From Heteronotia binoei (lineage: Eukaryota), in the NCBI RefSeq assembly GCF_032191835.1, contig NC_083234.1, positions 40,796,001 to 40,860,000 of the forward strand: a stretch of 64,000 nucleotides of DNA. The letters run 5' to 3'. Shown one piece after another: positions 20,990-63,569 of the stretch (position 1 is its first letter; every line of letters starts with the position of its first letter). The notes under the pieces are model-generated. The model had not been told where the DNA came from and made no database searches. It was given only the letters and a program-made list of their open reading frames with translations. The position numbers and the translations under genes were made by a program.

Positions 20990-21673
20990 AAGTAGATTTT
21001 GACCAGAGGAGCACAATTCAAGCATGGCTCCTTCAGACATGTGGATCCCAGGTTGTGAAAAGCTTGAGCTGAGTCTAGAAGCAGATAGGCAGCTGTTGCA
21101 ATTGTTTCAGAACAGGTGTTACATGTTCAAAGCAGCTTGCTTCAATTAAAATGCATTTTTCACATATTGCAGCTTGTGAGTTGACCTTAAGGGCAACCCG
21201 GAGAAGTAGAGCACATTACAATATTCCAGTGCTGAAGCTACAGTGGCATGGTTCAACTGGAAGAGTCCAAGTTGGGAGACAAGTTATGAATAAGATGTAA
21301 ATGAAAGAAGATGTTCCTATCAATAGAACAGATCTGCTTGTCTGAATCCAACAGCATTATATAATGTGCTGAAGATGCTGACCCTTTTCTAGGGTTGTCC
21401 TTATCAGAACATCAACCTTCCCACCCAGTATCATCTCCATCTTGACTGGATTCAGTTTCAAATTGTTACCCATCAACTACTTTTTGAGAGCAGCTTCTGG
21501 AGACTAGATAGAGAAATACAAAGATGGTTGTGATCTGCATAGTGGTGACAGCCAAGCACAAAGCTATGGATTGGGGTCATTCAGCAGCCTGACATAAATA
21601 TCAAAAAGCAAAGAGGTAAGAGAATTGACCCTTGAGAGTCTTGTGAGGAAATGACCCCTCTTTCCCCTAATAT
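20990..21673 (-). mobile_element. Old L2 LINE RT-region fragment (host of the LTR)
   Basis: Minus strand gives QGSILLPLLFDIYVRLL...HSFVLGCHHYAD, resembling the L2 RT GVPQGS...YADD region. A plausible continuation (LQWL-CF...RTQKV-like) lies at about 27100-27200. Confidence 0.6.
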
Positions 21674-22378
21674 TGTAGTCACCAGCATGGTTGCCAGGGC
21701 GCCTGGAGAAGTGAGCTCACACACACCTTTGGACAGAGGGTGTGAGCAAAACCATCCAGGGACTAAAAGGGACTCATGTGTGCAAACAGCCTAAGTGTGC
21801 AGGCATTCTAAACCGGTATAGAGTGCTTGCCAACGTGCACGGACGTTTCCCCGTCACTGCGTGAGTCCGCCATGGTAGGGAAGAAGCTGCGCCGCCACGG
21901 AGCTATCCAGGCGACCGGTGTTGAAGCGTTGAGCATGGAATCCACTGTGTCTCGCTAACACCGCTTGTAGCCATCTTCCTGCCAGGCTGGACTTCATTCC
22001 TTCATAGTGGGAAGCTCACGTATACACCCTGAGTCACCCTTAGCCCGCAAGCAACCCATTTGCCCCATGAATGGATTAATAGCTCAACTGTTAGTCCTGA
22101 TTGCCTAGCAATACCCTAAACGATAACTCCTGCCCAGAAGATGATGAGAAAAGAGGAAGAACATCTCCTGTCACAACCAAGTCTTTTGTCTACACCGGGG
22201 ATACCTAGGTCAATATTTGATTCCCTATTGTCACCTTCCCAGATAAACCCACTTAATCCCAAGTACCTAGCCATTTCCATACTGACACCCTTGGAGCCGC
22301 CCCAGGTAGGGTGACCATAATGTCTGAAGGCCAGCCAGGGACACGGGGGGGTGCGCTGCGCGCAAAGCGCGCGTGCCG

Positions 22379-22690
22379 CCGGAAACAGGAAGTGACGTCA
22401 CTTCCGGTGACGTCACTTCCGGTGATGTCATGCCACCGCCGGAAACAGGAAGTGACGTCACTTCCGGTGACGTCACTTCCGGTGATGTCATGCCACCGCC
22501 GGAAACAGGAAGTGACGTCACTTCCGGTGACGTCACTTCCGGTGATGTCATGCCACCACCGGAAACAGGAAGTGGCATCACTTCCTGTGACATCATTTCC
22601 CCCGCGTCACCTGCCGGAAACAGGAAGTGACTTCACAGCACTTCCTGTGACGTCCCCAAAAATCCCCCAAATATCACCGCCGGAAACAAT
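22379..22690. repeat. 60-bp tandem repeat rich in ETS (CCGGAAGT) and CRE (TGACGTCA) motifs
   Basis: Three near-perfect units of ccggaaacaggaagtgacgtcacttccggtgacgtcacttccggtgatgtcatgccaccg, then two degenerate units. Confidence 0.95.
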
Positions 22691-23593
22691 TTTGCTCTCA
22701 AATCCTGTATATACTTCATCAGTATATGGGATAAGGCACTTTCTCAACTGTGCTGCATAATGCAGCCTATTTATTTTGTCCTGTTGGCTCTGTTGGCTCT
22801 ATCTGCGCCACCTTCATCACTTTCGGGGTGTGGATCCCCCAGTGGGGTGGTCTCCCGACTCCCTCCGCTGACTGTTTCTGATAGCCCTGCGCCCCCTCTT
22901 TCATTTGATATGTGTCCCGTGCGGGTGCCACCCTCCCGCCGGGAGATGCCGCAAAATGAGCCCCCTTGAGGCTTATGGCGGCAGGGCTCGGGGGAAGCGA
23001 GCTAGACTGCTGTTCTTTTGAGGGGTTATAGAGTGTTTCGAGCCCGTCCCTGTGGCATCGGTCCCATCGTTGTGGGACCCAGGGGGCCGGCGCAGCGGCA
23101 CGCCGAAGCAGCCTGTCACTAATAACACCGGTCAAGATGCAGGACAGGAACCTGGAAGTGACCGACAGGCTGCTTCAGCGTGCTGCTGCGCCGGCCCCCT
23201 GGGCCCCACAACGATGGGACCGATGCCACAGGGACGGGCTCGAAACACTCTATAACCCCTCAAAAGAACAGCAGTCTAGCTCGCTTCCCCCGAGCCCTGC
23301 CGCCATAAGCCTCAAGGGGGCTCATTTTGCGGCATCTCCCGGCGGGAGGGTGGCACCCGCACGGGACACATATCAAATGAAAGAGGGGGCGCAGGGCTCT
23401 CAGAAACAGCCGGCGGAGGGAGTCGGGAGACCACTCCACTGGGGGATCCACACCCCGAAAGTGATGAAGGTGGCGCAGATAGAGCCAACAGAGCCAACAG
23501 GACAAAATAAATAGGCTGCATTATGCAGCACAGTTGAGAAAGTGCCTTATCCCATATACTGATGAAGTAAATACAGGATCTGAGAACAAAATT
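22688..23593. repeat. Long inverted repeat: ~430-bp arms, 46-bp spacer
   Basis: Arms 22688-23117 and 23164-23593 differ at about 10 positions by manual count. The ORF track shows near-identical peptides on opposite strands (22767-23135 and 23137-23514). Confidence 0.95.
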
Positions 23594-23665
23594 GCACTAG
23601 AAGACACAAACACAAAGCTCCCTTACACTGAATCAGTGCTTGGGTCCACCAAAGTCAGTATTGTC

Positions 23666-24258
23666 ACATAAGAGAAGCCCTGTTGGATCAGGCCAGTGGC
23701 CCCTCCAGTCCAACACTCTGCGTCACATAATAACATAAGAGAAGCCCTGTTGGATCAGGCCAGTGGCCCATCCAGTCCAACACTCTGCGTCACATAACAA
23801 CATAAGAGAAGCCCTGTTGGATCAGGCCAGTGGCCCATCCAGTCCAACACTCTGCGTCACATAACAACATAAGAGAAGCCCTGTTGGATCAGGCCAGTGG
23901 CCCATCCAGTCCAACACTCTGCATCACATAACAACATAAGAGAAGCCCTGTTGGATCAGGCCAGTGGCCCATCCAGTCCAACACTCTGCATCACATAACA
24001 ACATGAGAGAAGCCCTGTTGGATCAGGCCAGTGGCCCATCCAGTCCAACACTCTGCGTCACATAAGAACATAAGAGAAGCCCTGTTGGATCAGGCCAGTG
24101 GCCCATCCAGTCCAACACTCTGTGTCACATAAGAACATAAGAGAAGCCCTGTTGGATCAGGCCAGTGGCCCATCCAGTCCAACACTCTGCATCACATAAC
24201 AACATAAGAGAAGCCCTGTTGGATCAGGCCAGTGGCCCATCCAGTCCAACACTCTGCA
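23666..24258 (-). repeat. 67-bp tandem array of CR1 3' terminal sequence (at least 9 units, runs into gap)
   Basis: Units start at 23666, 23733, 23800, 23867, 23934, 24001, 24068, 24135 and 24202. The unit is the reverse complement of the CR1 tail seen singly at 11045-11179 and 29745-29915. Confidence 0.93.
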
Positions 24259-24816
24259 NNNNNNNNNNNNNNNNNNNNNNNNNNNNNNNNNNNNNNNNNN
24301 NNNNNNNNNNNNNNNNNNNNNNNNNNNNNNNNNNNNNNNNNNNNNNNNNNNNNNNNNNNNNNNNNNNNNNNNNNNNNNNNNNNNNNNNNNNNNNNNNNNN
24401 NNNNNNNNNNNNNNNNNNNNNNNNNNNNNNNNNNNNNNNNNNNNNNNNNNNNNNNNNNNNNNNNNNNNNNNNNNNNNNNNNNNNNNNNNNNNNNNNNNNN
24501 NNNNNNNNNNNNNNNNNNNNNNNNNNNNNNNNNNNNNNNNNNNNNNNNNNNNNNNNNNNNNNNNNNNNNNNNNNNNNNNNNNNNNNNNNNNNNNNNNNNN
24601 NNNNNNNNNNNNNNNNNNNNNNNNNNNNNNNNNNNNNNNNNNNNNNNNNNNNNNNNNNNNNNNNNNNNNNNNNNNNNNNNNNNNNNNNNNNNNNNNNNNN
24701 NNNNNNNNNNNNNNNNNNNNNNNNNNNNNNNNNNNNNNNNNNNNNNNNNNNNNNNNNNNNNNNNNNNNNNNNNNNNNNNNNNNNNNNNNNNNNNNNNNNN
24801 NNNNNNNNNNNNNNNN
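24259..24816. other. Assembly gap (558 N)
   Basis: Run of n characters. Confidence 1.
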
Positions 24817-24949
24817 CCCCCCCCCGCTTTCGGCCCCCTTACCTTATTCCAGGGCGGCGGAGTCCAGCGGCGGCGGCGGCGGGGAGTCCTCCGGCGGCGG
24901 CGTCGCGGCGAGGGAGGGAGGGAGGGAGCTGCCGGCGCTGGCCTCCAGG

Positions 24950-26215
24950 GACCAGCGCCGGCTGCTCCGCGGCTTCCCCACGGCCTCCGCTGCTCCCTGG
25001 AGGCCCTCCAGAGACTCTGGAGGGCCTGCAGGGACCAGCGGAGGCCGCGGGGAAGCCTTCGCTGGCCGGCGCTGGTCCCAGAAGGCCTTCCAGAGGCTCT
25101 GGAAGGCCTTCCGGGACCAGCGCCGGGTGCCCCGCGGCTTCCCCGCGGCCTCCGCTGGTCCCTGCAGGCCCTCCAGAGAGTCTGGAGGGCCTACAGGGAC
25201 CAGCGGAGGCCGCGGGGAAGCCTTCGCTGGCCGGCGCTGGTCCCCGAAGGCCTTCCAGAGCCTCTGGAAGGCCTTCCGGGACCAGCGCCGGGTGCCCCGC
25301 GGCTTCCCCGCGGCCTCCAATGGTCCCTGCAGGCCCTCCAGAGAGTCTGGAGGGCCTACAGGGACCAGCGGAGGCCGCGGGGAAGCCTTCGCTGGCCGGC
25401 GCTGGTCCCCGAAGGCCTTCCAGAGCCTCTGGAAGGCCTTCCGGGACCAGCGCCGGGTGCCCCGCGGCTTCCCCGCGGCCTCCGCTGGTCCCTGCAGGCC
25501 CTCCAGAGACTCTGGAGGGCCTGCAGGGACCAGCGGAGGCCGCGGGGAAGCCTTCGCTGGCCGGCGCTGGTCCCGGAAGGCCTTCCAGAGGCTCTGGAAG
25601 GCCTTCCGGGACCAGCGCCGGGTGCCCCGCGGCTTCCCCGCGGCCTCCAATGGTCCCTGCAGGCCCTCCAGAGAGTCTGGAGGGCCTACAGGGACCAGCG
25701 GAGGCCGCGGGGAAGCCTTCGCTGGCCGGCGCTGGTCCCCGAAGGCCTTCCAGAGCCTCTGGAAGGCCTTCCGGGACCAGCGCCGGGTGCCCCGCGGCTT
25801 CCCCGCGGCCTCCGCTGGTCCCTGCAGGCCCTCCAGAGACTCTGGAGGGCCTGCAGGGACCAGCGGAGGCCGCGGGGAAGCCTTCGCTGGCCGGCGCTGG
25901 TCCCGGAAGGCCTTCCAGACGCTCTGGAAGGCCTTCCGGGACCAGCGCCGGGTGCCCCGCGGCTTCCCCGCGGCCTCCAATGGTCCCTGCAGGCCCTCCA
26001 GAGAGTCTGGAGGGCCTACAGGGACCAGCGGAGGCCGCGGGGAAGCCTTCGCTGGCCGGCGCTGGTCCCCGAAGGCCTTCCAGAGGCTCTGGAAGGCCTT
26101 CGGGGACCAGCGCCGGGTGCCCCGCGGCCTCTCCGCGGCCTCCGCTGGTCGCTGGAGGCCCTCCAGAGTCTCTGGAGGGCTTCCAGCGACCAGCGGAGGC
26201 CACGGAGAGGCCTCC
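24950..26215. repeat. GC-rich self-palindromic 165-bp satellite-like array
   Basis: gggaccagcggaggccgcgggg recurs at 25031, 25196, 25361, 25526, 25691, 25856 and 26021, with a diverged copy at 26186; each unit contains its own reverse complement. Confidence 0.95.
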
Positions 26216-29200
26216 ACCACTGCCGCCGGGCCCCGCGCGCGGGCGGGGAAGGCGGGAAGGGAGGGAGGGAGCGTCCCTGCGCGTGCGCAGGGACGCTCCC
26301 TCCCTCACTCCCCGCCTTCCCCGCCCGCGCCCGCGGCCCACCGGCTCCTGGGCTGCCTAAACCGGGACCTTTAATGGTCCCGGTATAGGCAGCCCGGGAT
26401 CCGGGATTGGGTGGCCAGATCCGGGAATGTCCCGGGAGACCGGGACGGTCTGGCCACCCTAGCCCCAGGCCTTGTCGCAACCTGGAAGTTTCCAGGTGCC
26501 CAGGACGAAGGTGAAGTTCATTGGTCAAAGCAAACACCCAATTGGGTGTCACCACGGGACTCGCCATTGGCTCTGCTAATGTCCAGCCTTCGTGCTCATC
26601 ACAGAGCCTCCCATTCCTCCTCCCCGTTGCCTCCCATCCCCTAAGGGCTCAGGTGAGGCCTTATAACCTGTGGACTAGCTACCCACAGGTGTGCCTCTAA
26701 CAGTATCCCAGTTCCGCTGTCTAGATCCATCCCCAATTCTGGCCACAGTTTTGGGTCCATTTCCCCTGTCCTCTTATGTCGCCATTGGGACCTTCCTCGA
26801 AGACTACGATGGTAAATATTACCCTGTGTGTCTACCCTTATATGTTCCTCTATCAATCTATCTGTGTTTCTTAGGCCTGTGTGAATGTGTGATTGTATTG
26901 TATTTTTATCTTGTGTGAAAGAACTATATTATTCTAAATAAATTACAATTGGTTTTACTAAATTAGAGTCCTTTTATTGAGCATTACCCTCTGGATGGTT
27001 GAGCCTGGTATATATTGGTAAAAAGATTCCTAGTGAGCCAGGTGCCCACCTAACTAATTCCCCAACCTCGTTTTGAGGGCATTTAGGCTTACAGTCTGCA
27101 CAGAACAAGGACCAGGCAGGACTAATCTGGTTTTAGAAAAACTTTCTGTGTCCTACTGAGTTAAAAACATGATAACCACTGGAGAACCACCCCCTAATTC
27201 TTACTGACAACAATATATCATGATCTATTGTGTCAAAAACTACCAAAAGATCTAAATGAATCAATAAAGAGTTTATTTTGTTCATCTACAAAGATCGATC
27301 TTCAGAGCTATTAAAGCTGTTTCAATCCCCAAAACCAGGTCCGAGGCCCAGCTGAAATGGATCAATGTCATCCTAAATCTGAACTTGCCTTTCCTCAGTC
27401 TGTTTAATCATCTTTGAAGAATGACACTCATAAATAACTAAGTTCTCAGAATAATGAGCATTCTATCTCTTTAATGCAACTTCTAGCACACTGCCCTTTT
27501 CTTTGTCCAGTGCTTTTAGGACAATGGTAATTCCTTTGTACTTACCAATAGCTACTGAGAATTATTATATTTCCTTATTTCCTTCCCTTGAAATTATATG
27601 TATATTGACATGAAGGAGGAGAATCAATATTGCATAGGTCACCCTGCTCCAAACAGTAAGATGAAATCTAGTGAAATCTATCAGAGTGTGACTGAAAGGC
27701 ATGAAAAAGGAAGGAACTTCATACAGGGCAAAGAAAGTTGGATTGTTGAACCCGTTACCAATAGTTGGTGTAACCTAGAATGCTACAGAAGCAGCACAAA
27801 GCTGTTAGTACACAGCTGTGCCTGGTCACAATCTTGTTGTGCACACTTGGTACCACATGGAGATGCTATGCTCTACTTCCCAGTACAAGACTGGCCACAC
27901 ATTTCTTTTTTAAAAAAGCTGTGTGCACAATGAAAGCTAGAAACCTTTTCAAGTCTAATGCGTGTTTACAAATTTCTAAATTTTGCACAAGCCAAAAGAT
28001 TCTAATAAAACTGAGCCTGCTGAAGACCACAGAAGACAAATTCATCTTCAAAGCTTTCTAGCACATATGAAGAACACGTCAACTCTGTTGTTTTCATTAT
28101 TTTCTTCTTACGCCTTTCGTCTCCTCTCCCACCAGAAGAGGTACCACTTTGTGTTCTCAGCTGTTTTGGCCCAGATCTCATGGAATGACTAAACTACCCT
28201 TTGCTCTATACCTCCACCTCCACATTTACTGGCAGCACTGTAACGATAGATCAGAGAGACAACTATAATGAACTATCTCCAAATTGCATTAATAAGAGGC
28301 AGCTGCTCTGGAAGCTAATAATGTAAAAAAACTTAGTCATGTTTTGAAGAACTTAATAGACCAAGTCCTTTCCATAGCCCGTCTATCACACATATTTCAT
28401 GTCCCTTTATATGTGAATTTACTCACACTCTCTCACTTGCTGCACTGCTTTCTTTCCACCCACTTAAGTAAGATGCAATGCAATGACTTCACTTGATTGG
28501 TTGGACAGCTGCCATTCTACTGCTGATGGCCAGCTTTAGCCTGGAGTGTCAACTGAAACTGCAGCTTCATATTCTATATAAATAGATTCCTTCCTCCCCC
28601 AGCATATACTGCTTACTATGAAAGCTATTTGAGAGCTCTGCATAGTTTTGTATTGTGTCTTGCTGCTATTTCAGTAGTTGCTTTTCAACAGCTTTGCAGC
28701 AGTTGCCATACTAAGACTCAGCAGACACAGAATGCTTTCAGTTTTGCTACAGCTTGGACTCTGGAGGAGCTTAACACCAAATCAAGGTGGGCATAGGTAA
28801 GTGTTGGGCTCCCTTTACAGATTCTAAATTTTGCCTGGATCTTGTTGGCGGCTTCCTTTGGCAATAATCATTTGATGGTTAACAAATGTCTATTACTGTG
28901 TTGTTGCCATAATGCAATAACATTTAGGTTCCTCTTGCCCAATCCACTGCAGGCAAGACTCCCTCAACTTGGACCATTCCCAGTACATCTGGTATCCTCT
29001 ACAATCCAATTATTTCTGAAAAATTTCTTACATGCTAAACTGGTCATGTGATTGTCTCAACACACATCCAGATTGCAAGTCAGTACGTTCCCACTCCACG
29101 CTGCAAGTCAGCAAGTTCTCACTTGAAACAATGACAGCTGGCTTACCACAGCCAAACTGAGCCAAGAAAGGTCACATGAACAGGCTGCTCAAGACCTCCC

Positions 29201-32320: not shown

Positions 32321-33313
32321 ACTTGTCAGCCAAACATGTATACTAATTTCTGGTTTTCCAGGATTCATGGAGTCTCAAGTTAAAAGGATCCCATGTACTA
32401 AGGCTGTAAAGACTTTTGAGAAGATTGGGGCCTGAGACCACAGACTGCCATTGCCAGCCAGAGCAAACGATATTGACAGATGCTGTAACTATACCTTAAA
32501 AGTTCTGTTAGTGTGGCCTGTTATAGTTGTGCAAACTCCTTCTCAGTATCTCTAGAAATTAAATCTCTGAAGGTCAAATGACAAATGATGTTGGAGCTTC
32601 ATGATGAGACATCCAGACATGTAATTTGGTCTTTAAAAATTGCCACAGGAAGCCTGCTGGATCTATAGCTCTAGGGAATATATAGGTCTATACTAGGGGT
32701 GTGCATTCGGTTTGGCTGAACCGAATAAACCTCCAAATCCCCCCTGATTCGGTATACGGCGCCATATACTTCCGAATCCAATTGGAAGCCATTATATGGG
32801 AGCCATATATGGCTCCCAGTATACTTCCGAATCAATATTTGGAAGTATATGGAAGTCCATAGAAAAGGCAAGAAAGGAGCTTCTGCAGCCTCAGGGGAGC
32901 TGCTTGTCTCCTTTCCCGCCTTTGGAAGCCTTTTCCCGCCTCTCCCATAGCCTCCCTGGGATCAGAGGGGGGGAGGGGGAGAGGAGCCCCAGCAGTTAAT
33001 CCAAAGCATGCATTTGCAAAATGCATTGCAAATGCATGCTTTGCAGAGCTGTTGTGTAGCTGATGGCTGGGCTAATCCCCCAGCCATCAGCAATATTGTT
33101 GTTCTTTTGTTTACTTGGGTATCCAAGCAAACAGTGTTCTCTGGCCAATCACAGAACAGTGGTATTTTTTGAAACTGTTCTGTGTAGGGTCAGAGAACCT
33201 TTTTAAGGAATCTGCCTGGCTGGACTCCATTCCATTGCTGCTGTGTTGGTGTGTGAAAGAGACTGTGCTGTGCTGGCCCTTGGCCTCAGCTGCTGATGCT
33301 CTCTCTCAGCCTT

Positions 33314-33524
33314 ATATGAACATATGAAGCTGCCTTATACTGAATCAGACCCTTGGTCCATCAAAGTCAGTATTGTCTTCTCAGACTGGCAGCGGCTCTC
33401 CAGGGTCTCAAGCTGAGGTTTTTCACGCCTATTTGCCTGGACCCTTTTTTGGAGATGCCGGGGATTGAACCTGGGACCTTCTGCTTCCCAAGCAGATGCT
33501 CTACCACTGAGCCACCGTCCCTCC
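33314..33524 (-). mobile_element. Young tRNA-derived SINE (Squam2-like) nested in the hAT
   Basis: Minus strand GGTGGCTCAGTGGTAGAGC (A box), GGTTCAATCCCCGG (B box), tail TATAAGGCAGCTTCATATGTTCATAT. Confidence 0.9.
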
Positions 33525-34019
33525 ATTCTTGTCCCAGCCTTGCCTGACCTGCCTGGAGAAGAGAAGACATCTAAGGTAAGACAGTCTTGGGGTTCTTGTT
33601 TTTATTTTAGTTAGTAAAAGGACTTTTTAAAACTCAGAGTCCCTTTACTTATCCAGATTTGGGTGGTGGGTACTGGGTAGCTTATTTGGGGTTAGGGTTA
33701 GGGGGTTCTGCTGGGGGTGGGGGCCTGGTGTGGGGGGGTTGCCAATTTGCCCATATCTTACTTTAGTGAGAGAATTTTTAAAAGTGCAGTGTCCTTTTAC
33801 TTTTCCTGATTTGGGTGGTTTGGATTTCTTGGGTTTAGGGTGAAGTTTTTTTTGGGGGGAGGGGTTGGTAAAGTTCCTGTATTGTTAAAAGTCAAGTTTT
33901 TTACTGTTTTAAAAGGATTCTGTGTTTGATTTGTTGCTGCTGTGTTGTGCTGCTGTTGTTCCTTGTCTCTTCTGGTTCTGGTTCTTGTGCGGGGGGAGGC
34001 TGTTTGGCCTAATTTTCAT

Positions 34020-34320
34020 TGTTAAAAAGGTCACTTTTTTAACAGTTAAGTTTCTTGGCCTTTTCTCAGTGATTTGGATCTGTTGTTGTTGGTTTTGCAT
34101 CCTGTCCTGTTGTCTCTTTTCCTGTTTCTGTTTTTTTTTTTGGGGGGGGGTGTTGTTGACTGATTTGGCCTGAGGTTTTTTATTGTTAAAAAGGTCGCTT
34201 TTTTAACAGTTGAGTTTCTTGGCCTTTTCTCAGTGATCTGTTTGGATCTGTTGTTGGTTTTGCATCCTGTCCTGTTGTCCCTTTTCCTGGTTCTGGTTTT
34301 TTTTGGGGGGGGGGGGGTGT
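34020..34320. repeat. ~163-bp T/G-rich direct repeat (2 copies) inside the hAT
   Basis: gttaaaaaggtc(a/g)ctttttaacagtt...gcatcctgtcctgttgtc...tttttgggggggg at about 34021 and 34184. Confidence 0.85.
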
Positions 34321-35032
34321 TAAAAGTTACGTTTCTTTCTGTCACGTTTTGGTTTTTTTAATTACCTATGGTTGGTGTGGGGGTTGGTGTGTGGGCTGTG
34401 TGGGGTGGGTCACTTTCATGTTTTTATAGAGTTATTTTTGGAGTCTGAGGGTGCTTTCGGTTTGGCTAGGGCCATTAAATAGGCTGCCCCACTAATAAGG
34501 ATGTTTTTAGGGATTGTGCTTAAAAAAAATTAATCCAATTTAGGGCTTTATATTCTTTCAAAATTCAACCAGGCCAGATAGGGGCGATTTAAAAAGATTT
34601 TAGGTTTCTCATAAAAAAGGCAGCATGACTACTGGGCCACATCAGGCTCCCTTTTAAAGAGACTAGGGTTGCAGTGCATCTTGCTTTCAGCCACTGAAAG
34701 CTGGTGCATCCTTAGATGTCCATAGGGTAAACCACAGCTTCTCTCTAGTTATAGGGGACACCTAGTTTGCAAGTAAATCCAGTTTGTCCCAGGATCTAGT
34801 TAGGAGAACTTTAACTAGGAGGATATAACAAGGATTGCCTTCATCTCAAGGTAGCCTAACCCAAACCCAAAGAAGGACAGGTTAGGGACCAAAAAACCAA
34901 ACAAACAAGTTTTGGTGGGAGGGTTTTTAAAAAGAAGTCAGGGCATCTGTTGGTTCAGGTGTAGTGTAGTAAGTTAGGTTTGAAAAAAAACCCACTCTCA
35001 GTTCAGGTTGCGTGAGACTAGCCAAGGGTGAC

Positions 35033-37021
35033 ATGAGTGACAGGCAGCAGAAGAGGGGCCCTGGCGGCAAGGCCAAGGAGAAGACTAGAGGGGTAGAGGG
35101 GAGGGGGAGGACCCAGTTCCCCCACACACACCTGTGCGTAGGGCTACTCCACAGCCGCCTTCCAGCACTCCAACCGCTGGCCAGAGTGTGATGAAGAAGT
35201 CCCACCTTGGGCTCTTCATCAAGGCTGCTGCTGGGGCACCCCCAGCAAAGGTGCCATTAGGTGCTGGCACTGAGCAGGGGTCTGCTGCTCATGCAGTCTC
35301 TCCTCCAGCTGATGTTGCTCGGCCTCAGCAGCCGGAGGAGGAACAGCAAGAGCAGCCCTCCTTGGAGATGAGCTTTGGGGACAGTTTTCTGTCCAAAACG
35401 ATCACCCTAAGGAGGGTGTAGAGTGTCGTGCAGGAGCTGGAGGAGAAGCTGGTTGAGAAGGACCAGCCCCCTTCTTCGGTTCCTTCAGGCACCAGCAGTC
35501 CTTCAGGGGATGGCCAGGAGGGGAGGCCGCATGGGGTGGAAGAAATGGAGACACATGAGGTCAGCTTGGGCATCCATACACCTCCAAAGTCTGGAAGCAT
35601 TTCCGACATGGAGGATCCACACTATGCGCAGTGCCAGCTATCATTGGGCCTTGCTGCACGCCGAAGCAGTCAACGCACCACACATGGCGGACACTCTCGG
35701 AGCCATCCTCTCACAGCAGTTAGAGGGCTGGGTAGGCAGCAGGGACGTTGCCACGGACTTCATGGTGACTGATGGTGGCTCCAACATCAAGGCGGTTGTC
35801 CAGCGTCAGGGCCTAAAACGCCTTCCTTGCATGGCCCACCTTCTCCACCTCGTGGTTAAGGATGCATTGGGCCAGATGAAAAGCCAGGATCGTCGGTACC
35901 TAGCCGCAACCCATGAATACTGACTTCTGCTCCAGAAGTGTCAGCACATCACGGGTCACTTCTCACGCAACAATATGGACTTGTATCTGCTACGTGAGAA
36001 ACAGACACTGACAGGCGTGCCAGGGCATCGCCTGATCAGTGACGTCAGCACACGCTGGAACTCCACCTGTGCCATGCTGGAGCGCATGGTGGAGCAGAGA
36101 GCAGCCCTGGATGCCTTTGCCTCTAAGACAAGGGTCTTTCGGGATGAGAACCGTCTCACCCAAGAGGATTGGGTCATCATTTCTCAGACTGTGGAGGTTC
36201 TTGGGCCCTTCAAGACCCACACAGAAATGCTGTCATCTTGACACGGCAAGCATCGCACTGGTCATCCCCATAGTCCACATGGCCCATGAGGTCCTGGCCT
36301 CGTTTCTAGTGCCAGCTCAAGGCTGTGCAGATGTTCTTCCAGCAATGTGTGCCCTGGTTGTTAGGCTGCAGGAAGGACTTGAGGCCCACTTTCAAACTTT
36401 CACCCAGGATAAGGTCTACATGATGGCGACCATGTTAGACCTACGCCTTAAGGCACGATCGCTGAGCAGGCCAATGAGCTCAATCGCTGGCAACACGAGT
36501 TCTCCCAGAAGGTTGAGTGCTGCAGACTCAGGGCAGGCCCAGTGCCGGTAGCTGTGGAGGAAGGGGGTGGAAGCAACTCATCTGCCACTTCCACTGCTGT
36601 TCATCCCCAACCTCCCCGGCTAGGCAGTGTTTCCCACCAGACTCATGCCAAGAAGAGTGCTGAGATGACACTCATCGGGCAGCTTGCTGGCCGCTCTGGG
36701 AGCGGTAGGCCCCTGAGAGCGGAGACAGGTGCTGCAATGGTGAGGGACTATCTTTCGGAGCCCAACGAGTCGCAGGAAACGTCTCCTTTGGACTACTGGG
36801 TGATGAAGGAGGGGGTGCGGCCGGCCCTCTCCTCCGTGATCAAGGCGTTCTTCTCATGCCCACTGACAAGCGTGCACAGCAAGCATGTCTTTTTGCGTAT
36901 GGGTGACATTGTCTGCCCACATCGCAATCGCCTGCAACCCTGGACAGTTGAGCAGTTGGTCTTCCTGAAGGTCAACTTGCCTCTGTTTGGCTCCCCGAAT
37001 GTAGACTTTGAGAGTGAATGA
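35033..37021 (+). pseudogene. hAT transposase pseudogene (BED finger start, RNase-H core remnants, hATC dimerisation domain)
   Basis: Motifs across frames: SKVWKHF...EDPHYAQC (BED), VTDGGSN, CMAHLLHLVV (CxxH), LISDVSTRWNST, ATMLDLR, PLDYW...CPLTSVHSKHVF...HRNRLQPWTVEQLVFLKVN (hATC). It has several frameshifts, premature stops and a deletion near 35640. Confidence 0.93.
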
Positions 37022-37799
37022 AGTGAGCACCTACTAGTGCCTGCATCCTCTCTTGGCCCATGCTTGGAAGGTGGTTGTAAAATGCTCTCCCACTAAGCAT
37101 AGACTAGAGTCCAAAGACAGCCCAAAAACTCACAAATTGATTGGCAGTGCACCCCCCCACCCCTCATCCATCCCCAAAACAAAAGTGAATACTGATTTAA
37201 AATCTGCAAAGCAATCCAAATTTCCCCAGTCCCCATCCACACATGCCTAATAATACTATGTCCCATCCCAGATGAGATGGGACTCCGTCGGGCCCCCCCC
37301 CCCCCTGCACCCGACGGCTGAGACAGGATGCCGCCAGGAGCCCCCCCCCCCGCCCCCCCCCCCCGCAGCTCCCAAGGCTCCAGCATACGTCCTGGCCGCC
37401 TGACGGAGCCCGCCCCTCTGAGATGCCTGCCAGAGCAGGGAACCAATGGGCCCGCCCTTAGGCCTGGGTGAAGTGGCCAAGCCCTGGCTGTGGCCGCGGA
37501 AGGGAGAGGGCAGGAACACCACCCGGCCGAGAGGGTGGGGGAGGCAGGAGCCCTGAGCCCAGACACAACCACAACGCCCCAACCCACTCGACTGCCTCAC
37601 ACAATCTGAGGCCCTCCCGGTGATCTTCCTCATTTGGGGTGCAACTCTGGGTCACCTCCTCATGGTGCACCCTGGGTAATGCAAAAGAGCCTGGACCAGC
37701 CAACCATGCATCACTCAAGGTAAGTCTAAATGCTTCTTACTTTGTGTCAGATACAGAATGATGTGGAGCTAAGTGTGGTCCACCGCTTCTCTTGCTTGA

Positions 37800-38085
37800 G
37801 AGTTGTGTTGTTTGGGGCAAGGCTGGAGAGCTGGCATCTGTAGATTGTTCTGTGGCAGGGAAGCTGGCATCTGGGTGAGACACCGAGAACCAGCATGCTT
37901 GTTGTGCTTGGCCAGCTCTCCCTGCATTGTTTGGGGCAGGGCTGGAGAGCTGGCATCTGTAGATTGTGTGTTCTGTGGCTGGGAAACTGGCATCTGGGTG
38001 AGAGACCCAGAACCAGCATGCCTGTTGTGCTTGGCCAACTCTCCCTGTGTTGTTTGGGGCAGGGCTGGAGAGCTGGCATCTGGGA
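37800..38085. repeat. ~120-124-bp direct repeat (2.3 copies) inside the hAT
   Basis: tgtttggggcagggctggagagctggcatctg recurs near 37808, 37928 and 38052. Confidence 0.9.
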
Positions 38086-38269
38086 TTGCTGCAGCTAGGT
38101 CTGCAGAGCAGACCTTGAGCAGATTGTGTTTTGTGTGGCAGTGACGTTGGCAACTGAGTTTATATTGGATCCAGGCCAGCAGGGTTCATAGAGTAGATAG
38201 ATGGATGTAGTGCATTTCAGTCCTATAGAGATTCTCTTGTGTGAAGTTAGGTTTGGCTTTGGGTGCCCC

Positions 38270-39000
38270 AGGAATTGGACCCCCTGGTCCAATCTTTTTT
38301 TGGCCTTGTGGGTTTTGTGTGGGACAGTGCCCTGAAGCTGCACAGCAGTTTCTCCTCAAAAACCCCTGCTCCCCAGAGCCACTTTTCCCACTACAATTAC
38401 AGTGGGGAAAGTGGCTCTAATTGGTTTTTTCTCATCATTGGGAACAGTGTTCCTTTTGGGGTGCCCACAGATGGGTGCAGCCTTTTGGAACCAGGGGGGT
38501 TGCATGCGGGGGAGTCCCCTGAAGCTGCCCTGCAGTTTTGGGGCCTCTCCCTCAAACCCCCCTCTGGCCAAAGACACTTTCCCCACTGCAATTATAGTGG
38601 AGGAAGTGGCTAATTGGGCTTTCCCCAGCATTGGTGGCGATGGGCCTTTTGGGGAGCCCAAAGACAGGGACCCCCTGGCCCAATCTTTTTGGGATTTGGT
38701 GGTTTTGTAGGGGAGAATCCCCTGTGGGTTCCCTGCAGTTTTGGGGGCTCTCTCTCAGACCCCCTGCCCCCCAGTAGTCTCTAATTATGCCCTGTGTTGC
38801 CATTGATTTCAATGGCCCATAGTGTATAATGGAGGGATAGGGGCACCCTCTTTGGTTTCCCTGGAATGGGACCCCCTAGCCCAATCTTTTTGGGACTTGG
38901 GGGGGTTGTAGGGAGTGTCCCCTGCAGGTCCCCTGCAAATTTTGGGGCTCTCCCTCAAACCCCCTCCCCTCCAGGTGGCTTCAAATATACCCTATTTTGC
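38270..39000. repeat. Diverged ~195-200-bp subterminal repeats of the hAT (about 4 copies)
   Basis: ggaccccc.ggcccaatctttttt...cctgcag(t)tttgggg.ctctccctcaaacccc recurs near 38277, 38470 (partial), 38668 and 38868. Confidence 0.75.
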
Positions 39001-40529
39001 CATTGATTTCAATGCCCATAGGGTATAATTGGGCCATATATTCGGAAATAGCCGTATATCTCCTGTATATACAGCTATTCCAAGTACTGGTATTCAGAAA
39101 TATACGGTATTCCAAATATTTTGACCCCATAAATTTCCGAATCCAATTTTTTCTGAATTTATTTTTTTTTTGCACACCCTTAGTCTATACCTCTAGGGAA
39201 GTCCCCCCCCCCCGCAACAGTTCCCTAATCTCTATGTTGTTTCCCTAATCAAAGCTCCCCCCCAGCTGCATTTAGCCCCAGTAGAAAAAAAAACTGGGAG
39301 AGAACACTTGACCAGAGAATAAGCCAAAGGAGAAGTTGTTCCCCCTTTCCCAGCATCATAGCCCTGATCCATATCTTCCCAGCAGAACCTATCACAGATC
39401 CCCAGCTTCATGCATAGTACAGCCATGAGCAGGTAGGTGGTGCTCTATGATGCACAGTTTCTCATTTCACATGCTGCTGAGGCATATTTTGAACTGCTGA
39501 TAACAGACTGGATGCTTGATCCATACACCGTGGATAGAAATAGGTGTAAATTAAAAAGCTGACTTTCACCTATTAATTCAAAATTGCCAGCCCATATCTT
39601 TGGCTGCAATTTCTGTAATTCTCTTACAAATTATTATTTCCTGTGTGTGTGCTAGCTGAAAAGCATGTGATGCTGGTACACTTTTTTATAGCAAATCAGT
39701 TGTAATGTTTTCATTAATCAATAATACTGACTGTAGAAGATTGAGCACTCTAGCCTCTGCTTCTGGAAAAAAGGGAAAAGCTAATTTTTTAGCTTGAGAT
39801 GGAATAGATCTCAATGATAGGAGTCCCTTGTGACTTACTGCATCCAGATGCCACCAAAATCCATTGATGATTGTCTTGGGGATTAACGAGAAAACCTTCT
39901 AAGAGAGTCTAAATTCTTTGCTGGACCAAGACACACAAAGCCCCAACACATTTTGTGTGTGCAAAGTCCATCCAGTATTTCTGACTTTCATGCATAAAGG
40001 GGTAAAATTATTATGATAAACTTTTTGTGGAAATCAGATTGGCAGATTCAAGATGCTACTGGCAAGACAAAATAGGAGGTTTGCAGTTAAACTCTGGGCT
40101 ATAAAAGATGCAGATTCAGTTTTCATCTGTGTCCCATACATTGCTTGCTCCATGAGCCTTTGAATGCATTGTCTAGCCTTTCCTTGCCTCAGTTTTCCTA
40201 TTGTACAATAGAAAAGGAAAACTCCACATACATTTATTACATGCTAGACTAAAATTAAGCCAAATTAAATCACACATGGGGGAGGACTGAAGCTCAGTAA
40301 CAGGGCATGTTTAGAAGGACACAGATTGAATCTCCAATTAAGACGCAGCTGAAGAACCAGTGTTAAGATAGTCCCCTACGTGAGAACTTGGAGATAATTA
40401 CTATTATCTTTTCTTGTTGACAGTGTTATCAGGTGAATGGTTGTTGTTTTTTACTATAACCAGAGTAGTTTTGGATGATAAAGCTGAAGAGGCATGTAAA
40501 ATCTAGGCATCCCACAAATATGAAGCATC

Positions 40530-52450: not shown

Positions 52451-52855
52451 TCAGGGCCCTGCAGTTGTTGATCTATCTACTCGCTTGCATTCAAGATTTG
52501 TTGAGTTTATTTTTATGGTTTAAGAGTATAGTCAATGGCATCCCCCCCCCAACAATTTTCCAAGGAGTGATTTCCTCTCCTCCATTTTATCCTTACAATA
52601 TCTGTGAGGTAGGCCAGGCTGAGTGAGAATGTCTCAATCAAAGTCAAACGGAGTTTTATCGTGTGGGGGGATCTGAACCAGGGTCCCCAACTGTCAGTAC
52701 TCCAACAATTGCACCACACTATATTTTTATCATCCCCTTCTTCCAGAAGGCTTGAAGGGGGCATACAGGATTCTTCCCCCATTTTATCCCAACAACAACC
52801 ATGTGAAACAGAGGAAGCATGACTAGTCTAAGGTAGTGTCATGTTTAGCATGTTG

Positions 52856-54244
52856 TGTAAGCCAAAATGCCCTCAAAACGAGCTTGGGGAATTGTCTGGT
52901 GGGCACCTGGCTCACTCAGGATCTTTTTACCTGTGTGTACAGGATTCCACGTCCAGAAAAGTAATGCTTAAAAATATTAGGGACTCTAAGTAAAACCATT
53001 AAAATTTATTAAGAAAAATATAGTCTTCCATACAAGATAAAATACTCATAAAATCACACATTCAGTCCTAGGAAACATAGATAGAGAGACAGAGGAACAC
53101 ATGGTTAGACAAACAGGGTAATATTTACCGATCGTAGTCTTCAAGGAAGGCTCCGATGGCGACGAGCAAGGAAGTGGGAAAGGGGACCCGAAACTGATCA
53201 GGAATCGGGGATGGGTCTATGCAGCGGAATTGGGATACTGATAGAAGCACACCTGTGGGTAGCTAGTCCACAGATTGCAAGGACTCTCTTGAGCCCTTAG
53301 GGAATGGGAGGTATGAGGGAGGAGGAAGGTGGTCAGCTGGTGCATGACCTCACGAAAAGGGGAGGTTTCGCAGTGACTATAAGGGCTGGACTACTGCAAC
53401 AACCAATAGAAAGTTCATTGGTGGCACCTAATTGGGTGCTTGCTCTTGACCAATGGACTGGCTTGGACTGGGTGCTTGCTCTTGACCAATGGACTGGCTT
53501 GGATCCTGGATGCCAATGGACTGGATACCAATGACCAATGGACTGGCTTGGATCCTGGATACCTGAGTGAACTTTCAGGTTGAAATGGATCAAGGGGAGG
53601 CTCCAAAATGACAGTTGGGAAGAAGAATAGAGAGATTACTTGGGTGGGGAGATACTTAGGACTATTAGACTTATCTAAAAGGGTGACAATAGAGAGTCAA
53701 ATCATGGCCTAGGTAACACCCAGTTTGTACAAAGGAACTTGGCTCTGGCTGAAGATGGTCTTCCTCTTCTTCTGTCTTCTCCTTGGCACTAATCTTTGTC
53801 TTGAGTTCTGTCAAACAAAGAAAGTGGCGGTTGGACGATTAACCACTCCTGGGGTGGGTAGGTTGCTTGCAGGCATAGGTGACATCTGATGTGCATGTGA
53901 GCCATCCGCTTCGCTGGAATGGAGTCAAGCCTTGCAGGAAGATAGCTGCATGAGGTGTTAGCCCTCCACGGTGGATTCCATGGTCAGTGCTTCAAAACCA
54001 TTCACCTGGACAGCTCCTGGCGGCGCAGTCTCTTCCACTCCATGATGGACGTCATGCGGAACGACGGGAAGTCTTCCGTTCTCCTGGTGGGCACTCTTGT
54101 ACCAGTCTAGAGTGCCTTTGTAGCGTTATGGCTGCTAGTACTGCATAAGTCCCTTTTGCCCCTGGATAGGTTTACCCACACTCTCTGGCCAGACGTGTGT
54201 GAGTCACTTCTCCAGGTGCTCTGGCAACCGAGCTGGTGATTACG
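52856..54244 (-). mobile_element. Solo ERV-like LTR (1389 bp)
   Basis: Termini TGTAAGCC...GATTACG (CA mutated); 6-bp TSD ATGTTG/ATGTTC; AATAAA on the minus strand about 150 bp from its 3' end; homologous to 21674-27093. Confidence 0.88.
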
Positions 54245-55768
54245 ATGTTCTGTAAGGGAGTTTTTCCCCACAGTTGGGCTAGAACACGGAAGAACCAGGT
54301 CAAATCCTCATCCTGCTATGAAATTCACTGGGTCTCCCAAGTCCTTGCCCAACATGCTAAACACTGGACTAGATTGGCTTGCATTGAAACCTATGGAGGG
54401 GACTGCAACCCAGCTATAGAGATTTTTGGAAACACTGTAGTCAGTGCATGAACAGACCGAATACAATAAATTTGGATTAAAATGAAATTATGAGATTGCC
54501 TGGATTAGGATAACATTTCTCCACAGACACACAGTTTTATAGTGGGTCCAAACTTAGTTCAAAGACTTCTTGTTTCCCCTGTTTTTCCCATTGAGTTTAC
54601 CAACAAGCCAGGCTCACCAATTGTGTAGTTTGATTCAAACTGTATTTCTAAAGCAACTTCCTGCATTGTTTCCAGGTCAGATATATTCAGCTAGGATCTG
54701 TCACAGACACAGCAAGGGCACACAACCTGATTAAAGAGTAGATAAAGGTTTGTTTAGGAATTAACATACTTCATAGGAAAGAGGAGAGACAGAGATAAGG
54801 GGGGAGGGACTGAGTGTGGCACTTCCAAGAAGAGGGAAATTGCCCTAAGTGTAGCAATCTGGAGACAGAAATAGAACGACACTTAACAGGAGAGAAGGTG
54901 CTGACTTTACCATCCTATCTAATTGTCTTCCTGCTGTCCTCTGCAGGGTCTTCTTCTCTTCTTCTTTGTACACCAGGCATTGCCTTTTCCAATAGGATTG
55001 GAGAGGTGGGGAGAAGAAATGTTGTTGAGAATATGGCATAGAGGACAGGAAGCAGCTGTCAAGCAAACAAAACCTCTGTGTCCAAGTTGCAATCTTTTAT
55101 TGTAAACTAAAGTTCACAACTCTGTGAAAAATCCCAAAGTAACACATAGAAAGCTGCAAGGCAAGGAATAGTCTACCATTGTCTTTTCAAAAATCAGAAA
55201 TACCTATCTGAATAAAGAAATGAAATTATACAATGCATCCCTCTTCCGCCATCTACTGGCCAATCTGAGATCTTTCTCTTGTGTTTCGGAGAAGTGACTT
55301 TTCTCATTACCTGGTCCTTTACAAAAGGCAAACCTTCGTCCCTCCCTCCAGAAATAGATTTGCCTTTTTGTTCTGCAGGGCAAGCACTACTTTTCCCTGT
55401 ATCTGTGCACATGTTCAGACCAAAACATGCTGTTGCACCTGAATAGGGGTCAGAATGATATGCATCTCTTTTAGATTGCCAAAGAGCCATTATTTTACTT
55501 GTCTGTCATCCAACTGTGTTGGACCTGTAAGATGCACAGCACTTCCAAAGCCACAGTTCCAGATCCTACCAAGCTTTACCCAAACTCAATATGTTCTACT
55601 TCAATTTCTCCCTATCCCAATCCTTGCCCTCCAGTCAGGAGGCTACTATTTTTGAAAGCGAATATTAGCAATTCTCTGGGTTGGAGAATCAGTTATACAT
55701 GGGGTGTTTGCCCTGACAGGGATGCTATTAAAAAGCAGAGTTTTTTCCTGCATCTGCACACCATCATA

Positions 55769-62447: not shown

Positions 62448-63569
62448 CTCTCTCTCGGCTTGGCTTCGCGAACGAAGATTTAAGAAGGGTGCAATAGTCC
62501 ACTTCTGCTGCAGGCTCGCTGGTGGCTGACAAGACCAATGCGGGACAGGCACGTCCGGCCACAGTGGCTGCAGGGAAAAGTTTGATTTAGGGTTGGTGCT
62601 GTAGCAGTGCGATTCTTCCTCAATCTCCTTTTGTCCTCAAGACCAACTATGAGTGCGTTCTCAAAAGAAGAGACAGCCTGGTGGATGGTGTGCCTCCATG
62701 CTTTGCGATCTGAGGCTAGGTCAGACCACTGGTGATGGTTGATGCGACAGGTGCCAAGGGATTTCTTCAAGGAGTCCTTGCACCTCTTCTTTGGTGCCCC
62801 TCTATTTCGATGGCCAGTGGAGAGTTCGCCATACAGGGCAATCTTGGGAAGGCGGTGGTTTTCCATCCTAGAAATATGTCCTGCCCAGCGCAGCTGCGTC
62901 TTCAACAGCAGTGCCTCGATGCTGGTAACCTCCGCCCGCTTGAGAACTTCAGTGTTGGTCACAAAGTCACTCCAGTGGATGTTGAGGATGGTGCGAAGGC
63001 AGCGCTGATGAAAGCGCTCGAGGAGTCGCAGGTGATGACGGTATAAAACCCACGATTCGGAGCCGTAGATGAGGGTTGTCATCACAACCGCTTTGTAAAC
63101 ATTGATCTTTGTGCCTTTTTTCAGATGCTTGTTGCTCCACACTCTTTTGTGCAGTCGGCCAAATGCACAGCTTGCCTTTGCCAGCCTGTTGTCAATCTCC
63201 TTGTCGATCTTAGCATCTGAGGAGATGATGCACCCCAGGTAGCTGAACTGCTGGACTGTCTTCAGAACTGATTCACCCACAGTGATGCAGGGAGGGTGAT
63301 AATCTTCCTGGGGTGCAGGCTGGTGGAGAACTTCTGTCTTCTTCAGACTAACTTCTAGGCCGAATAGCTTGGCAGCCTCTGCAAAGCAGGACGTCATATG
63401 CTGCAGAGCTGATACCGAGTGGGAGACGAGTGCAGCATCATCAGCAAACAGTAGCTCTCGGATGAGTTTTTCCATTGTCTTGGAGTGGACCTTTAGTCGC
63501 CTCAGGTTGAACAGGCTGCCATCGGTGCGATAGCGGATGTAGACACCATCGTCATCATCATCTTAGCTC
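62448..63569 (-). mobile_element. 5'-truncated RTE-clade LINE, young
   Basis: 11-bp TSD GGCAGCTAAGT at 62437-62447 and 63570-63580; short 3' UTR TAAATCTTCGTTCGCGAAGCCAAGCC plus (GA)n tail. Confidence 0.93.
62480..63562 (-). CDS. RTE ORF fragment: RT C-terminal half plus C-terminal zinc-finger-like motif (lacks its N-terminus)
   Basis: Open for about 360 codons: DDGVYIRYRTDGSLFNLRRL, LLFADD, FSYLG, YGSESW, QLRWAGH, CSHCGRTCLSRIGLVSHQRAC. Confidence 0.88.
   Translation of the reverse strand, partial: DDDDDGVYIRYRTDGSLFNLRRLKVHSKTMEKLIRELLFADDAALVSHSVSALQHMTSCFAEAAKLFGLEVSLKKTEVLHQPAPQEDYHPPCITVGESVLKTVQQFSYLGCIISSDAKIDKEIDNRLAKASCAFGRLHKRVWSNKHLKKGTKINVYKAVVMTTLIYGSESWVLYRHHLRLLERFHQRCLRTILNIHWSDFVTNTEVLKRAEVTSIEALLLKTQLRWAGHISRMENHRLPKIALYGELSTGHRNRGAPKKRCKDSLKKSLGTCRINHHQWSDLASDRKAWRHTIHQAVSSFENALIVGLEDKRRLRKNRTATAPTLNQTFPCSHCGRTCLSRIGLVSHQRACSRSGLLHPS

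What the first reader, a model, noticed from the sequence alone, without database searches (positions are those of the whole stretch)
22306..22690. Mobile CpG-island-style promoter cassette: tandem ETS-CRE composites plus NRF1-like sites
Seen: each 60-bp unit holds two TGACGTCA and two ACTTCCGG sites as overlapping GGAAGTGACGTCACTTCCGG palindromes, giving six full CRE sites in 180 bp. There is a GCGC-rich NRF1-like motif at about 22352-22375 and TGCGCGTGCGCA near 26278 at the other end; CpGs are undecayed. Established: overlapping ETS/CRE motifs (GABPA with CREB1) and NRF1 sites typify housekeeping CpG-island promoters. Inference: the transposon may amplify and deliver a ready-made promoter, here into LTR U3.
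Basis: partly seen in the sequence, partly recalled or inferred. Interest (0 to 1): 0.7.

Follow-up and report, generated by a model that had tools for sequence, protein, structure and literature searches.

The report
Transposon end stacked with ETS–CRE motifs
A cut-and-paste transposon with over 2,000 copies in this genome carries, near one end, a rare housekeeping-promoter motif (six copies here), which likely serves the transposon itself rather than delivering a working promoter, because inserted copies lose their CpGs as fast as other, likely methylated, transposons.

Summary
The motifs are real; the delivered-promoter reading is mostly unsupported. The array is the left-end minisatellite of a 4.2-kb non-autonomous hAT-type transposon (22307–26461, 8-bp target duplication, 2,027 exact left ends genome-wide) inserted in a solo LTR, about 4.1 kb from its TATA-like box. 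It holds six canonical ETS–CRE 16-mers. The genome has 4,572 such 16-mers, against 3 reported in human. Six is an outlier: 100 unselected copies average 1.2 (maximum 4). CpGs are not protected: CpG transitions in the array run 7–11 times the non-CpG rate, like a control hAT (7.0). An older hAT-like family carries the same motif at the same distance from its end; 6 of 100 listed sites keep both CpGs. The tandem motif also recurs in viral terminal repeats and an unrelated repeat in metagenome contigs. Best reading: an old transposon-end element, likely bound by host ETS and CREB factors to the element's own benefit, multiplied here by slippage and decaying after insertion. The left 'NRF1' site fails the consensus; the right one is exact. 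RNA reads are inconclusive. The scan had no look-alike of this DNA, only a similar idea elsewhere.

The parts
21642..22306 (+). Solo LTR, part before the insertion (likely U3); begins TG, 4-bp target duplication GTCT
   Evidence: orientation from one polypurine-like flank (L110) and from TATAA/AATAAA order (inferred)
22299..22306 (.). Left 8-bp target-site duplication GCCCCAGG
   Evidence: present once at the empty site in other LTR copies
22307..26461 (+). Non-autonomous hAT-type DNA transposon, 4,155 bp, no transposase seen in the readable part
   Evidence: 78 of 100 sampled copies have a matching 8-bp duplication
22307..22317 (+). Left terminal inverted repeat TAGGGTGACCA
22338..22375 (.). 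Hypervariable G-run and (CG)n tract; not an NRF1 consensus site
22376..22555 (-). Three 60-bp units, each with two canonical ETS-CRE 16-mers (CCGGAAGTGACGTCAC on the minus strand, 15-bp period) and one 18-bp palindrome
22556..22690 (.). Two degenerate units without an intact CRE (TGGCATCA, TGACATCA, TGACTTCA)
22687..23594 (.). Internal palindrome, 431-bp arms 98% complementary, 46-bp centre (centre flipped in 8 of 77 readable copies)
23666..24257 (.). 67-bp tandem array, 8.8 copies, resembling a reptile SINE/LINE tail (recalled); no Rfam match
24940..26213 (.). 165-bp GC-rich, internally palindromic tandem array, 7.7 copies
26279..26290 (-). Exact NRF1 consensus site (consensus recalled); at least one exact site in 51 of 78 complete copies
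26362..26450 (.). Six CCGGGA repeats inside the right end, candidate transposase-binding sites (inferred)
26451..26461 (-). Right terminal inverted repeat
26462..26469 (.). Right 8-bp target-site duplication
26470..27093 (+). Rest of the solo LTR: TATAA at 26662, AATAAA at 26937, ends CA

Best explanation
The array is the left-end minisatellite of a young non-autonomous hAT-type transposon, and its ETS-CRE motif is a feature of that transposon end which is likely kept because host ETS and CREB/ATF factors binding there would help the element's own copying, not because it gives the host a promoter. Shown: the element, its copy number, the motif's position about 65-95 bp inside the left end in two families, the unit-number variation and the fast CpG loss among copies. 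Inferred: the CpG loss reflects germline methylation after insertion; the threefold repeat here arose by slippage or unequal exchange; the motif is old; factor binding would keep the end of a minority of unmethylated donor copies open to transposase (or it descends from the promoter of the lost parent's transposase gene). The landing in a solo LTR is likely chance.
For: Element: TIRs and 8-bp duplication; 2,027 exact 36-bp left ends; 3,047 exact 22-bp right ends; duplication found in 78 of 100 copies. Motif load: 4,572 exact 16-mers, control 1, versus 3 in human (PMC3464117 passage); 20 of 20 further palindrome hits read were the same broad family. Position: first motif 72-97 bp from the TIR (10th-90th percentile, n=93; 79 bp here); an older family with TAGGGTTGCCA-like ends has it at 64-81 bp in 9 of 11 loci with a findable TIR, and matches the young family only over the motif. 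Decay: CpG/non-CpG transition ratio 11.1 (CI 6.6-22.7) and 7.1 (CI 6.2-8.3) in the array, control hAT ORF 7.0. Older-type pattern: 7,337 sites, both CpGs intact in 6 of the first 100 listed, with TG and CA forms both common, so CG was the starting state (counted by hand). Yet the young family starts again from intact CpGs (68 and 69 of 74 copies at the first motif) while downstream units are fixed as TGACATCA. Recurrence: the 16-mer lies in terminal repeats in 8 of 12 viral loci, and a 37-nt exact match occurs in an unrelated repeat.
Against: No binding, accessibility or transposition data exist here. No autonomous partner was found, so 'relic of the parent's promoter' and 'useful to the non-autonomous element' cannot be told apart. 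The test for fewer CpG losses in donor lineages was inconclusive (p=0.18-0.25, with misaligned columns; two shared CpG losses show donors also decay). 18 of 100 copies lack any intact 16-mer and 3 lack the array, some of them with intact ends, though deletion may have followed insertion. The youngest subfamily has the most 16-mers (1.73 vs 1.1), which youth alone could explain. Mutation rates report only average germline methylation; a minority of copies or somatic tissues could be unmethylated. The right end decays more slowly (ratio 3.6-4.0), as do the LTR copies (3.5).
Confidence: 0.55

Rival explanations
1. The motif is an inert passenger: a captured host promoter piece (Pack-TIR) or a relic with no present role, carried and duplicated only because palindromic minisatellites slip.
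For: Every internal module of this element forms arrays or palindromes, and the units fold as strong hairpins (z -8.2). Minisatellites in transposons and animal Pack-TIRs are described (PMC6947457, PMC8277862; passages). One of 18 other ETS-CRE loci read is a CpG-island-like non-transposon site (L342), so host sources of the motif exist. CpGs in the motif decay like any other.
Against: The motif holds the same position in two families that share little else and is intact at the start of the young burst despite being hypermutable. No host source longer than the motif was seen among the loci read; a genome-wide source search was not possible because family copies fill the hit lists.
Confidence: 0.22
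2. One reading: the element delivers a ready CpG-island promoter or enhancer to new sites, here to an LTR.
For: Canonical GABPA/CREB1 16-mers, an exact NRF1 site at the other end, CpG o/e about 1 in the array against 0.13-0.19 in the flanks, and precedent for MITE-derived enhancers in Xenopus, where 47 of 7,230 hAT-N16_XT copies overlap liver open chromatin (PMC12676858 passages).
Against: CpG decay equals that of a control transposon; methylation blocks ETS and CREB binding (PMC3464117 passage); the LTR is solo and its TATA-like box is about 4.1 kb away; no read-start pile-up at the array, and 14 reads in one run enter from unrelated flanks (unstranded, likely other species, weak).
Confidence: 0.13
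3. The repeats are binding sites for the transposase itself and resemble ETS-CRE by accident.
For: hAT transposases bind short subterminal repeats (established, recalled); the array is subterminal.
Against: The array is at one end only, whereas GGGAC occurs at both ends and six CCGGGA repeats line the right end. An accidental exact 16-mer that also recurs in viral termini is unlikely.
Confidence: 0.06
4. The array and the neighbouring hairpin were captured from the terminal repeat of a DNA virus such as a parvovirus.
For: 31 of 33 nt match to both ends of a 5,596-nt viral record and 27 of 27 nt to another record's terminus; adjacent long palindrome with a flipped centre in 8 of 77 copies.
Against: Matches stop at the motif (17-33 nt); a 22-nt pattern from the palindrome arm and a 20-nt pattern from the unit had 0 viral matches; the motif predates this family in an older hAT-like family.
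Confidence: 0.04

Closest known systems
ETS-CRE composite motif of housekeeping promoters (GABPA + CREB1; PMC3464117, PMC4555227)
   Same: Exact canonical 16-mer CCGGAAGTGACGTCAC, six times here.
   Different: In human it occurs 3 times (226 for the 11-mer core), and the motif is promoter-enriched, conserved and mostly unmethylated in mouse cells; here it occurs 4,572 times, in transposon copies wherever read, in 15-bp tandem, and decays at methylated-DNA rates.
Non-autonomous hAT elements with TAGGG ends (Blackjack/MER81/MER94-like; end sequence recalled; PMC5753468 lists them as hAT but gave no end sequence in the passages seen)
   Same: Short TIR starting TAGGG, 8-bp duplication, no coding capacity, short GC-rich subterminal repeats.
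   Different: 0.5-6.2 kb and built of several minisatellites and a 0.9-kb palindrome; ETS-CRE array at the left end; subgroup not tested.
Tandem repeats riding on MITEs (Xenopus Xstir/Xmix, clam DTC84; seen as review passages, a reference title and an abstract start)
   Same: Copy-number-variable minisatellites spread inside a non-autonomous DNA transposon.
   Different: Here the repeat unit is a canonical two-factor promoter motif.
Animal Pack-TIRs (PMC8277862) and MITE-derived enhancers of Xenopus (hAT-N16_XT; PMC12676858)
   Same: Non-autonomous hAT carrying regulatory-looking DNA to many places.
   Different: No parental host locus found; no evidence of open chromatin here; motif shared with an older transposon family.
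Terminal repeats of DNA viruses, e.g. parvovirus B19 ITR/P6 promoter (PMC7552014, PMC5996831; passages)
   Same: Tandem CRE/ETS motifs close to the end of a replicon, CpG-rich; B19 expression is reported to be regulated by CpG methylation.
   Different: No homology beyond 17-33 nt; the viral repeats drive a real promoter and origin, which is not shown here.

Membership tests
hAT superfamily, non-autonomous | 8-bp target-site duplication | tested here: met
   GCCCCAGG here; 78 of 100 copies, at most one mismatch
hAT superfamily, non-autonomous | Short terminal inverted repeats | tested here: met
   11-bp TIR, 10 of 11 complementary
hAT superfamily, non-autonomous | No transposase of its own; dispersed insertions with empty sites | tested here: met
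   No Pfam hit in the 3 left-end ORFs tested; the longest ORF among 78 complete copies is repeat-derived (the other long ORFs were not read); empty site in 24 of 24 LTR copies. A stretch of N in this copy is unread.
hAT superfamily, non-autonomous | Autonomous partner with the same ends | tested here: inconclusive
   Not found in 30 PF05699 loci, 10 extended loci and 30 PF14291 loci; the abundant intact hAT has TAGGGATGTGCA ends. Searches score only the best candidates.
hAT-Blackjack subgroup | Transposase phylogeny or end sequence matching Repbase/Dfam entries | not testable with these tools
   No repeat library on hand; resemblance recalled only
ETS-CRE motif | Exact (C/G)CGGAAGTGACGTCAC with 3-bp overlap | tested here: met
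   six copies; definition from PMC3464117
ETS-CRE motif | Bound by GABPA and CREB1 in vivo | not testable with these tools
   no ChIP data
CpG-island promoter | High GC and CpG o/e over at least 200 bp | tested here: met
   22308-22690: GC 0.58, o/e 0.99
CpG-island promoter | Unmethylated in the germline (CpGs not hypermutable) | tested here: not met
   family-wide ratio 7-11, equal to a control hAT; says nothing on single copies
CpG-island promoter | Transcription starts at or next to the motifs | tested here: inconclusive
   no start pile-up in unstranded RNA-seq whose reads differ from this subfamily
Pack-TIR | Internal sequence with an identifiable non-transposon parental locus | tested here: inconclusive
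   all hits read for the array were transposon copies; one CpG-island-like locus shares only the motif core
NRF1 site | YGCGCAYGCGCR (recalled) | tested here: met
   met at 26279-26290; not met at 22352-22375 (3 mismatches)
Solo LTR, insertion in U3 | TG...CA ends, short duplication, site upstream of TATA and poly(A) signal | tested here: met
   the start site itself is not mapped and the retroelement class is not determined

The most novel reading that the evidence does not exclude
The tandem ETS-CRE motif is a convergent 'end-opening' module of mobile DNA in animals: hAT transposons of this lineage, an unrelated repeat and several DNA-virus termini have each arrived at the same motif because GABP/CREB binding keeps an end unmethylated and nucleosome-free. 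In the transposon it would select which few copies become donors, and thousands of sites could also titrate GABP/CREB or seed promoters while young.
Probability: 0.2. Interest if true: 0.8.

Novelty: new variant of a known kind. Interest (0 to 1): 0.45.

Why it matters
Transposons carrying factor-binding sites and minisatellites are known. What is unusual is the scale and exactness: a 16-mer found 3 times in the human genome occurs 4,572 times here, at a fixed place inside transposon ends, with an older family showing its fate after insertion. If host factors at this motif help a cut-and-paste element reach its transposase, that would be a simple, testable answer to how non-autonomous DNA transposons keep bursting in a heavily methylated vertebrate genome. 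Natural copies with 0 to 14 sites give a ready dose series.

Tried and rejected
Autonomous partner: none in PF05699 and PF14291 loci; the one BLAST link (L316) is a different non-autonomous element inserted in an old transposase. Donor-versus-inserted CpG loss: one search gave no result, so a branch-by-branch test remains open; a column-wise count was underpowered and disturbed by misalignment at the arm's tail. Rfam: 0 matches in 21500-27200. Viral capture: no homology beyond the motif. Targeting of CpG islands: 1 of 100 insertion sites island-like. Long ORFs in copies: the longest is repeat-derived. Mouse pseudoautosomal primers share 16-20 nt with the unit (bioRxiv 10.1101/2022.03.26.485930 passage); a search for a link found nothing; kept as a lead only. 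A zebrafish primer hit was irrelevant. Literature: ten searches listed no paper whose title or abstract start describes an ETS-CRE array in a hAT or other DNA transposon; only the top rows were seen, subscription journals, Repbase and Dfam are not covered, and no supplements were opened.

Full report
Observation. Three near-identical 60-bp units at 22376-22555 each carry two TGACGTCA and two ACTTCCGG; six of the window's seven CREs are here. Read on the minus strand each pair is CCGGAAGTGACGTCAC, the canonical ETS-CRE 16-mer of PMC3464117 (passages), to which GABPA binds best and CREB1 adds about two-fold (PMC4555227, passages). With one unit counted, 0 of 5,000 shuffles gave two CREs. The palindrome is an 18-mer, one per unit. 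Units four and five hold no intact CRE. The left 'NRF1-like' tract is a hypervariable G/(CG)n run, 3 mismatches from the recalled consensus; the site at 26279-26290 is exact.

What carries it. The array starts 69 bp inside a 4,155-bp element (22307-26461) with 11-bp inverted ends and an 8-bp duplication, the marks of a hAT transposon (established knowledge). It also holds a palindrome with 431-bp arms, a 67-bp array, a stretch of N, and a 165-bp array. The genome (2.63 Gb; a vertebrate, likely a lizard from recalled repeat types, not tested) has 2,027 exact 36-bp left ends and 3,047 exact 22-bp right ends. I fetched the first 100 listed left ends on contig C1: 78 have a matching 8-bp duplication within 6.7 kb, lengths 467-6,201 bp. 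Median identity of the palindrome arm to this copy is 98% (87 copies). No autonomous partner was found; the abundant intact hAT has different ends and no such motif in the loci read.

Copy number of the motif. The genome holds 4,572 exact 16-mers (control 1) against three in human. All 20 extra palindrome hits read belong to the same broad family. In the 100 unselected copies the 16-mer count is 0 in 18, 1 in 49, 2 in 29, 3 in 1 and 4 in 3 (mean 1.22), so six is an outlier. Among the 30 best BLAST hits, which are biased to long arrays, counts reach 14. The youngest subfamily (26 of 100, arm divergence 0.5%), to which this copy belongs, averages 1.73 against 1.1 in two older ones. A second subfamily sample (26 of 30 loci with a findable end) has mostly 0-1. 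Unit patterns differ between copies, as expected of slippage or unequal exchange (inferred).

Are the CpGs protected? No, on average. Against nearest copies, CpG transitions run 11.1 times the non-CpG C/G rate in the array (n=84, CI 6.6-22.7), 6.7 in the arm (n=74) and 4.0 in the last 150 bp (n=78). In pairwise counts the ratios are 7.1, 7.0 and 3.6, with controls 7.0 for an autonomous hAT reading frame (11 of 30 loci alignable) and 3.5 for 24 LTR copies. The two CpGs of the first motif are intact in 68 and 69 of 74 copies, like neighbouring CpGs. High CpG content here therefore reflects youth. This measures average germline methylation by inference; single copies and somatic tissues are untested.

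The motif predates this family. Of 18 loci with the ETS-CRE core that were not in the 16-mer list, 14 share a diagnostic sequence of an older, diverged family with TAGGGTTGCCA-like ends; one (L342) looks like a host CpG island; three were not assigned. In 9 of 11 loci with a findable end the motif lies 64-81 bp inside it (others 115 and 121); in the young family it lies 72-97 bp inside. A pattern allowing CpG decay gave 7,337 sites; of the first 100 listed, 6 keep both CpGs, the CRE CpG reads CG 14, TG 31, CA 52, TA 3, and the ETS CpG reads CG 38, TG 29, CA 33 (hand count; six of these sites were read as older-family loci, the rest are assumed). So the intact motif was present when each burst began and decays afterwards.

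The LTR. The host is a solo LTR, 21642-27093, with a 4-bp duplication; 24 of 24 other copies are continuous across the site. One copy has a polypurine-like flank that sets the plus orientation; TATAA is at 26662 and AATAAA at 26937, so the site is likely in U3, about 200 bp upstream of the TATA-like box. The array is at the far end of the insert, about 4.1 kb away, and no retroelement body follows. The LTR search had 4,227 candidates; if these approximate copies, about 0.2% of the genome, roughly four such insertions are expected by chance among 2,027 elements (my arithmetic).

Recurrence elsewhere. In viral contigs the 16-mer gave 12 loci; 8 lie in four records, five within about 320 nt of a record end and three in a second copy of a repeat; the other 4 are single matches. 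Matches to the array are 17-33 nt only. One record has the 5,596-nt length given for parvovirus B19, whose termini are described as CpG islands with promoter and origin roles (PMC7552014, PMC5996831, passages). In metagenome contigs the 18-mer gave 38 loci, 8 of them one interspersed repeat that looks eukaryotic (not tested), two with a 37-nt exact match and unrelated flanks. These point to convergence on one factor-binding arrangement, not to shared descent (inferred).

RNA. Four runs hold about half the sampled words. Raw reads of one coded organism cover the element thinly on both strands, with no pile-up of starts at the array; depth is lower over the three intact units than over the decayed ones, and 14 reads in one run enter from unrelated flanks. 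The reads carry other subfamily variants, so this is inconclusive.

Mechanism. Shown: a mobile element spreads and sometimes multiplies a canonical ETS-CRE motif, and inserted copies lose it at methylated-DNA rates. Inferred: the motif is kept at a fixed place in donors, which suggests a use to the element, most likely host ETS and CREB/ATF binding that keeps the left end of a few copies open to transposase, or the promoter of a lost parent. A direct test for selection in donors was inconclusive. Rivals: inert passenger or captured promoter (0.22), delivered promoter (0.13), transposase sites (0.06), viral capture (0.04).

Comparison and verdict. It works like other non-autonomous hATs bearing minisatellites (PMC6947457, passages) and factor motifs (PMC12676858, passages); it is a hAT by ends and duplication, not shown to be a Pack-TIR (PMC8277862, passages) and fails the germline-unmethylated test for a CpG-island promoter. 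Ten literature searches listed no description of this motif in a DNA transposon, within their limits; supplements were not opened. The scan's own notes had no look-alike sequence and two related ideas. New variant of a known kind; interest 0.45.

Noticed in passing
window 22687-23594 and 100 copies on C1: The 46-bp centre of the internal palindrome is inverted in 8 of 77 copies where it can be read, a flip/flop pattern suggesting exchange or template switching between the arms.
   Followed up: partly
L316:2385-3609: A different element starting CAGTGGCG, inserted in an old hAT transposase, carries the same GC-rich internal modules as this family, so modules seem to move between non-autonomous families.
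   Followed up: partly
window about 32860-39030: A broken copy of the abundant autonomous hAT (about 7.4 kb, ends TAGGGATGTGCA, about 940-aa reading frame open in many copies); Pfam Dimer_Tnp_hAT at 36452-37018.
   Followed up: partly
window about 52850-54260, minus strand: A second, more diverged solo LTR of the same family (72-80% identical) without the insertion, with 36-bp tandem CCAAT-box repeats.
   Followed up: partly
L252, L254, L269, L273, L276, L280, L282, L284: An unrelated interspersed repeat in metagenome contigs carries the same tandem ETS-CRE motif inside a short palindrome.
   Followed up: partly
bioRxiv 10.1101/2022.03.26.485930, methods: Two independent mouse pseudoautosomal-region primers share 20 and 16 nt with the unit, and others are ETS-rich, hinting that this fast-evolving region also accumulates the motif.
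   Followed up: no
L002, L062: Other copies carry a long GGAA/GGGA microsatellite next to the 67-bp array.
   Followed up: no
last 150 bp of the element: CpG decay is slower at the right end (ratio 3.6-4.0) than in the array and arm (6.7-11), near the NRF1 site and CCGGGA repeats.
   Followed up: no
window 62483-63562, minus strand: Reverse-transcriptase fragment (Pfam RVT_1, below the cut-off).
   Followed up: no
L054: A 5.1-kb copy whose inside after the first arm is unrelated genomic-looking DNA ending in a CpG-rich stretch, a possible capture of host sequence.
   Followed up: no
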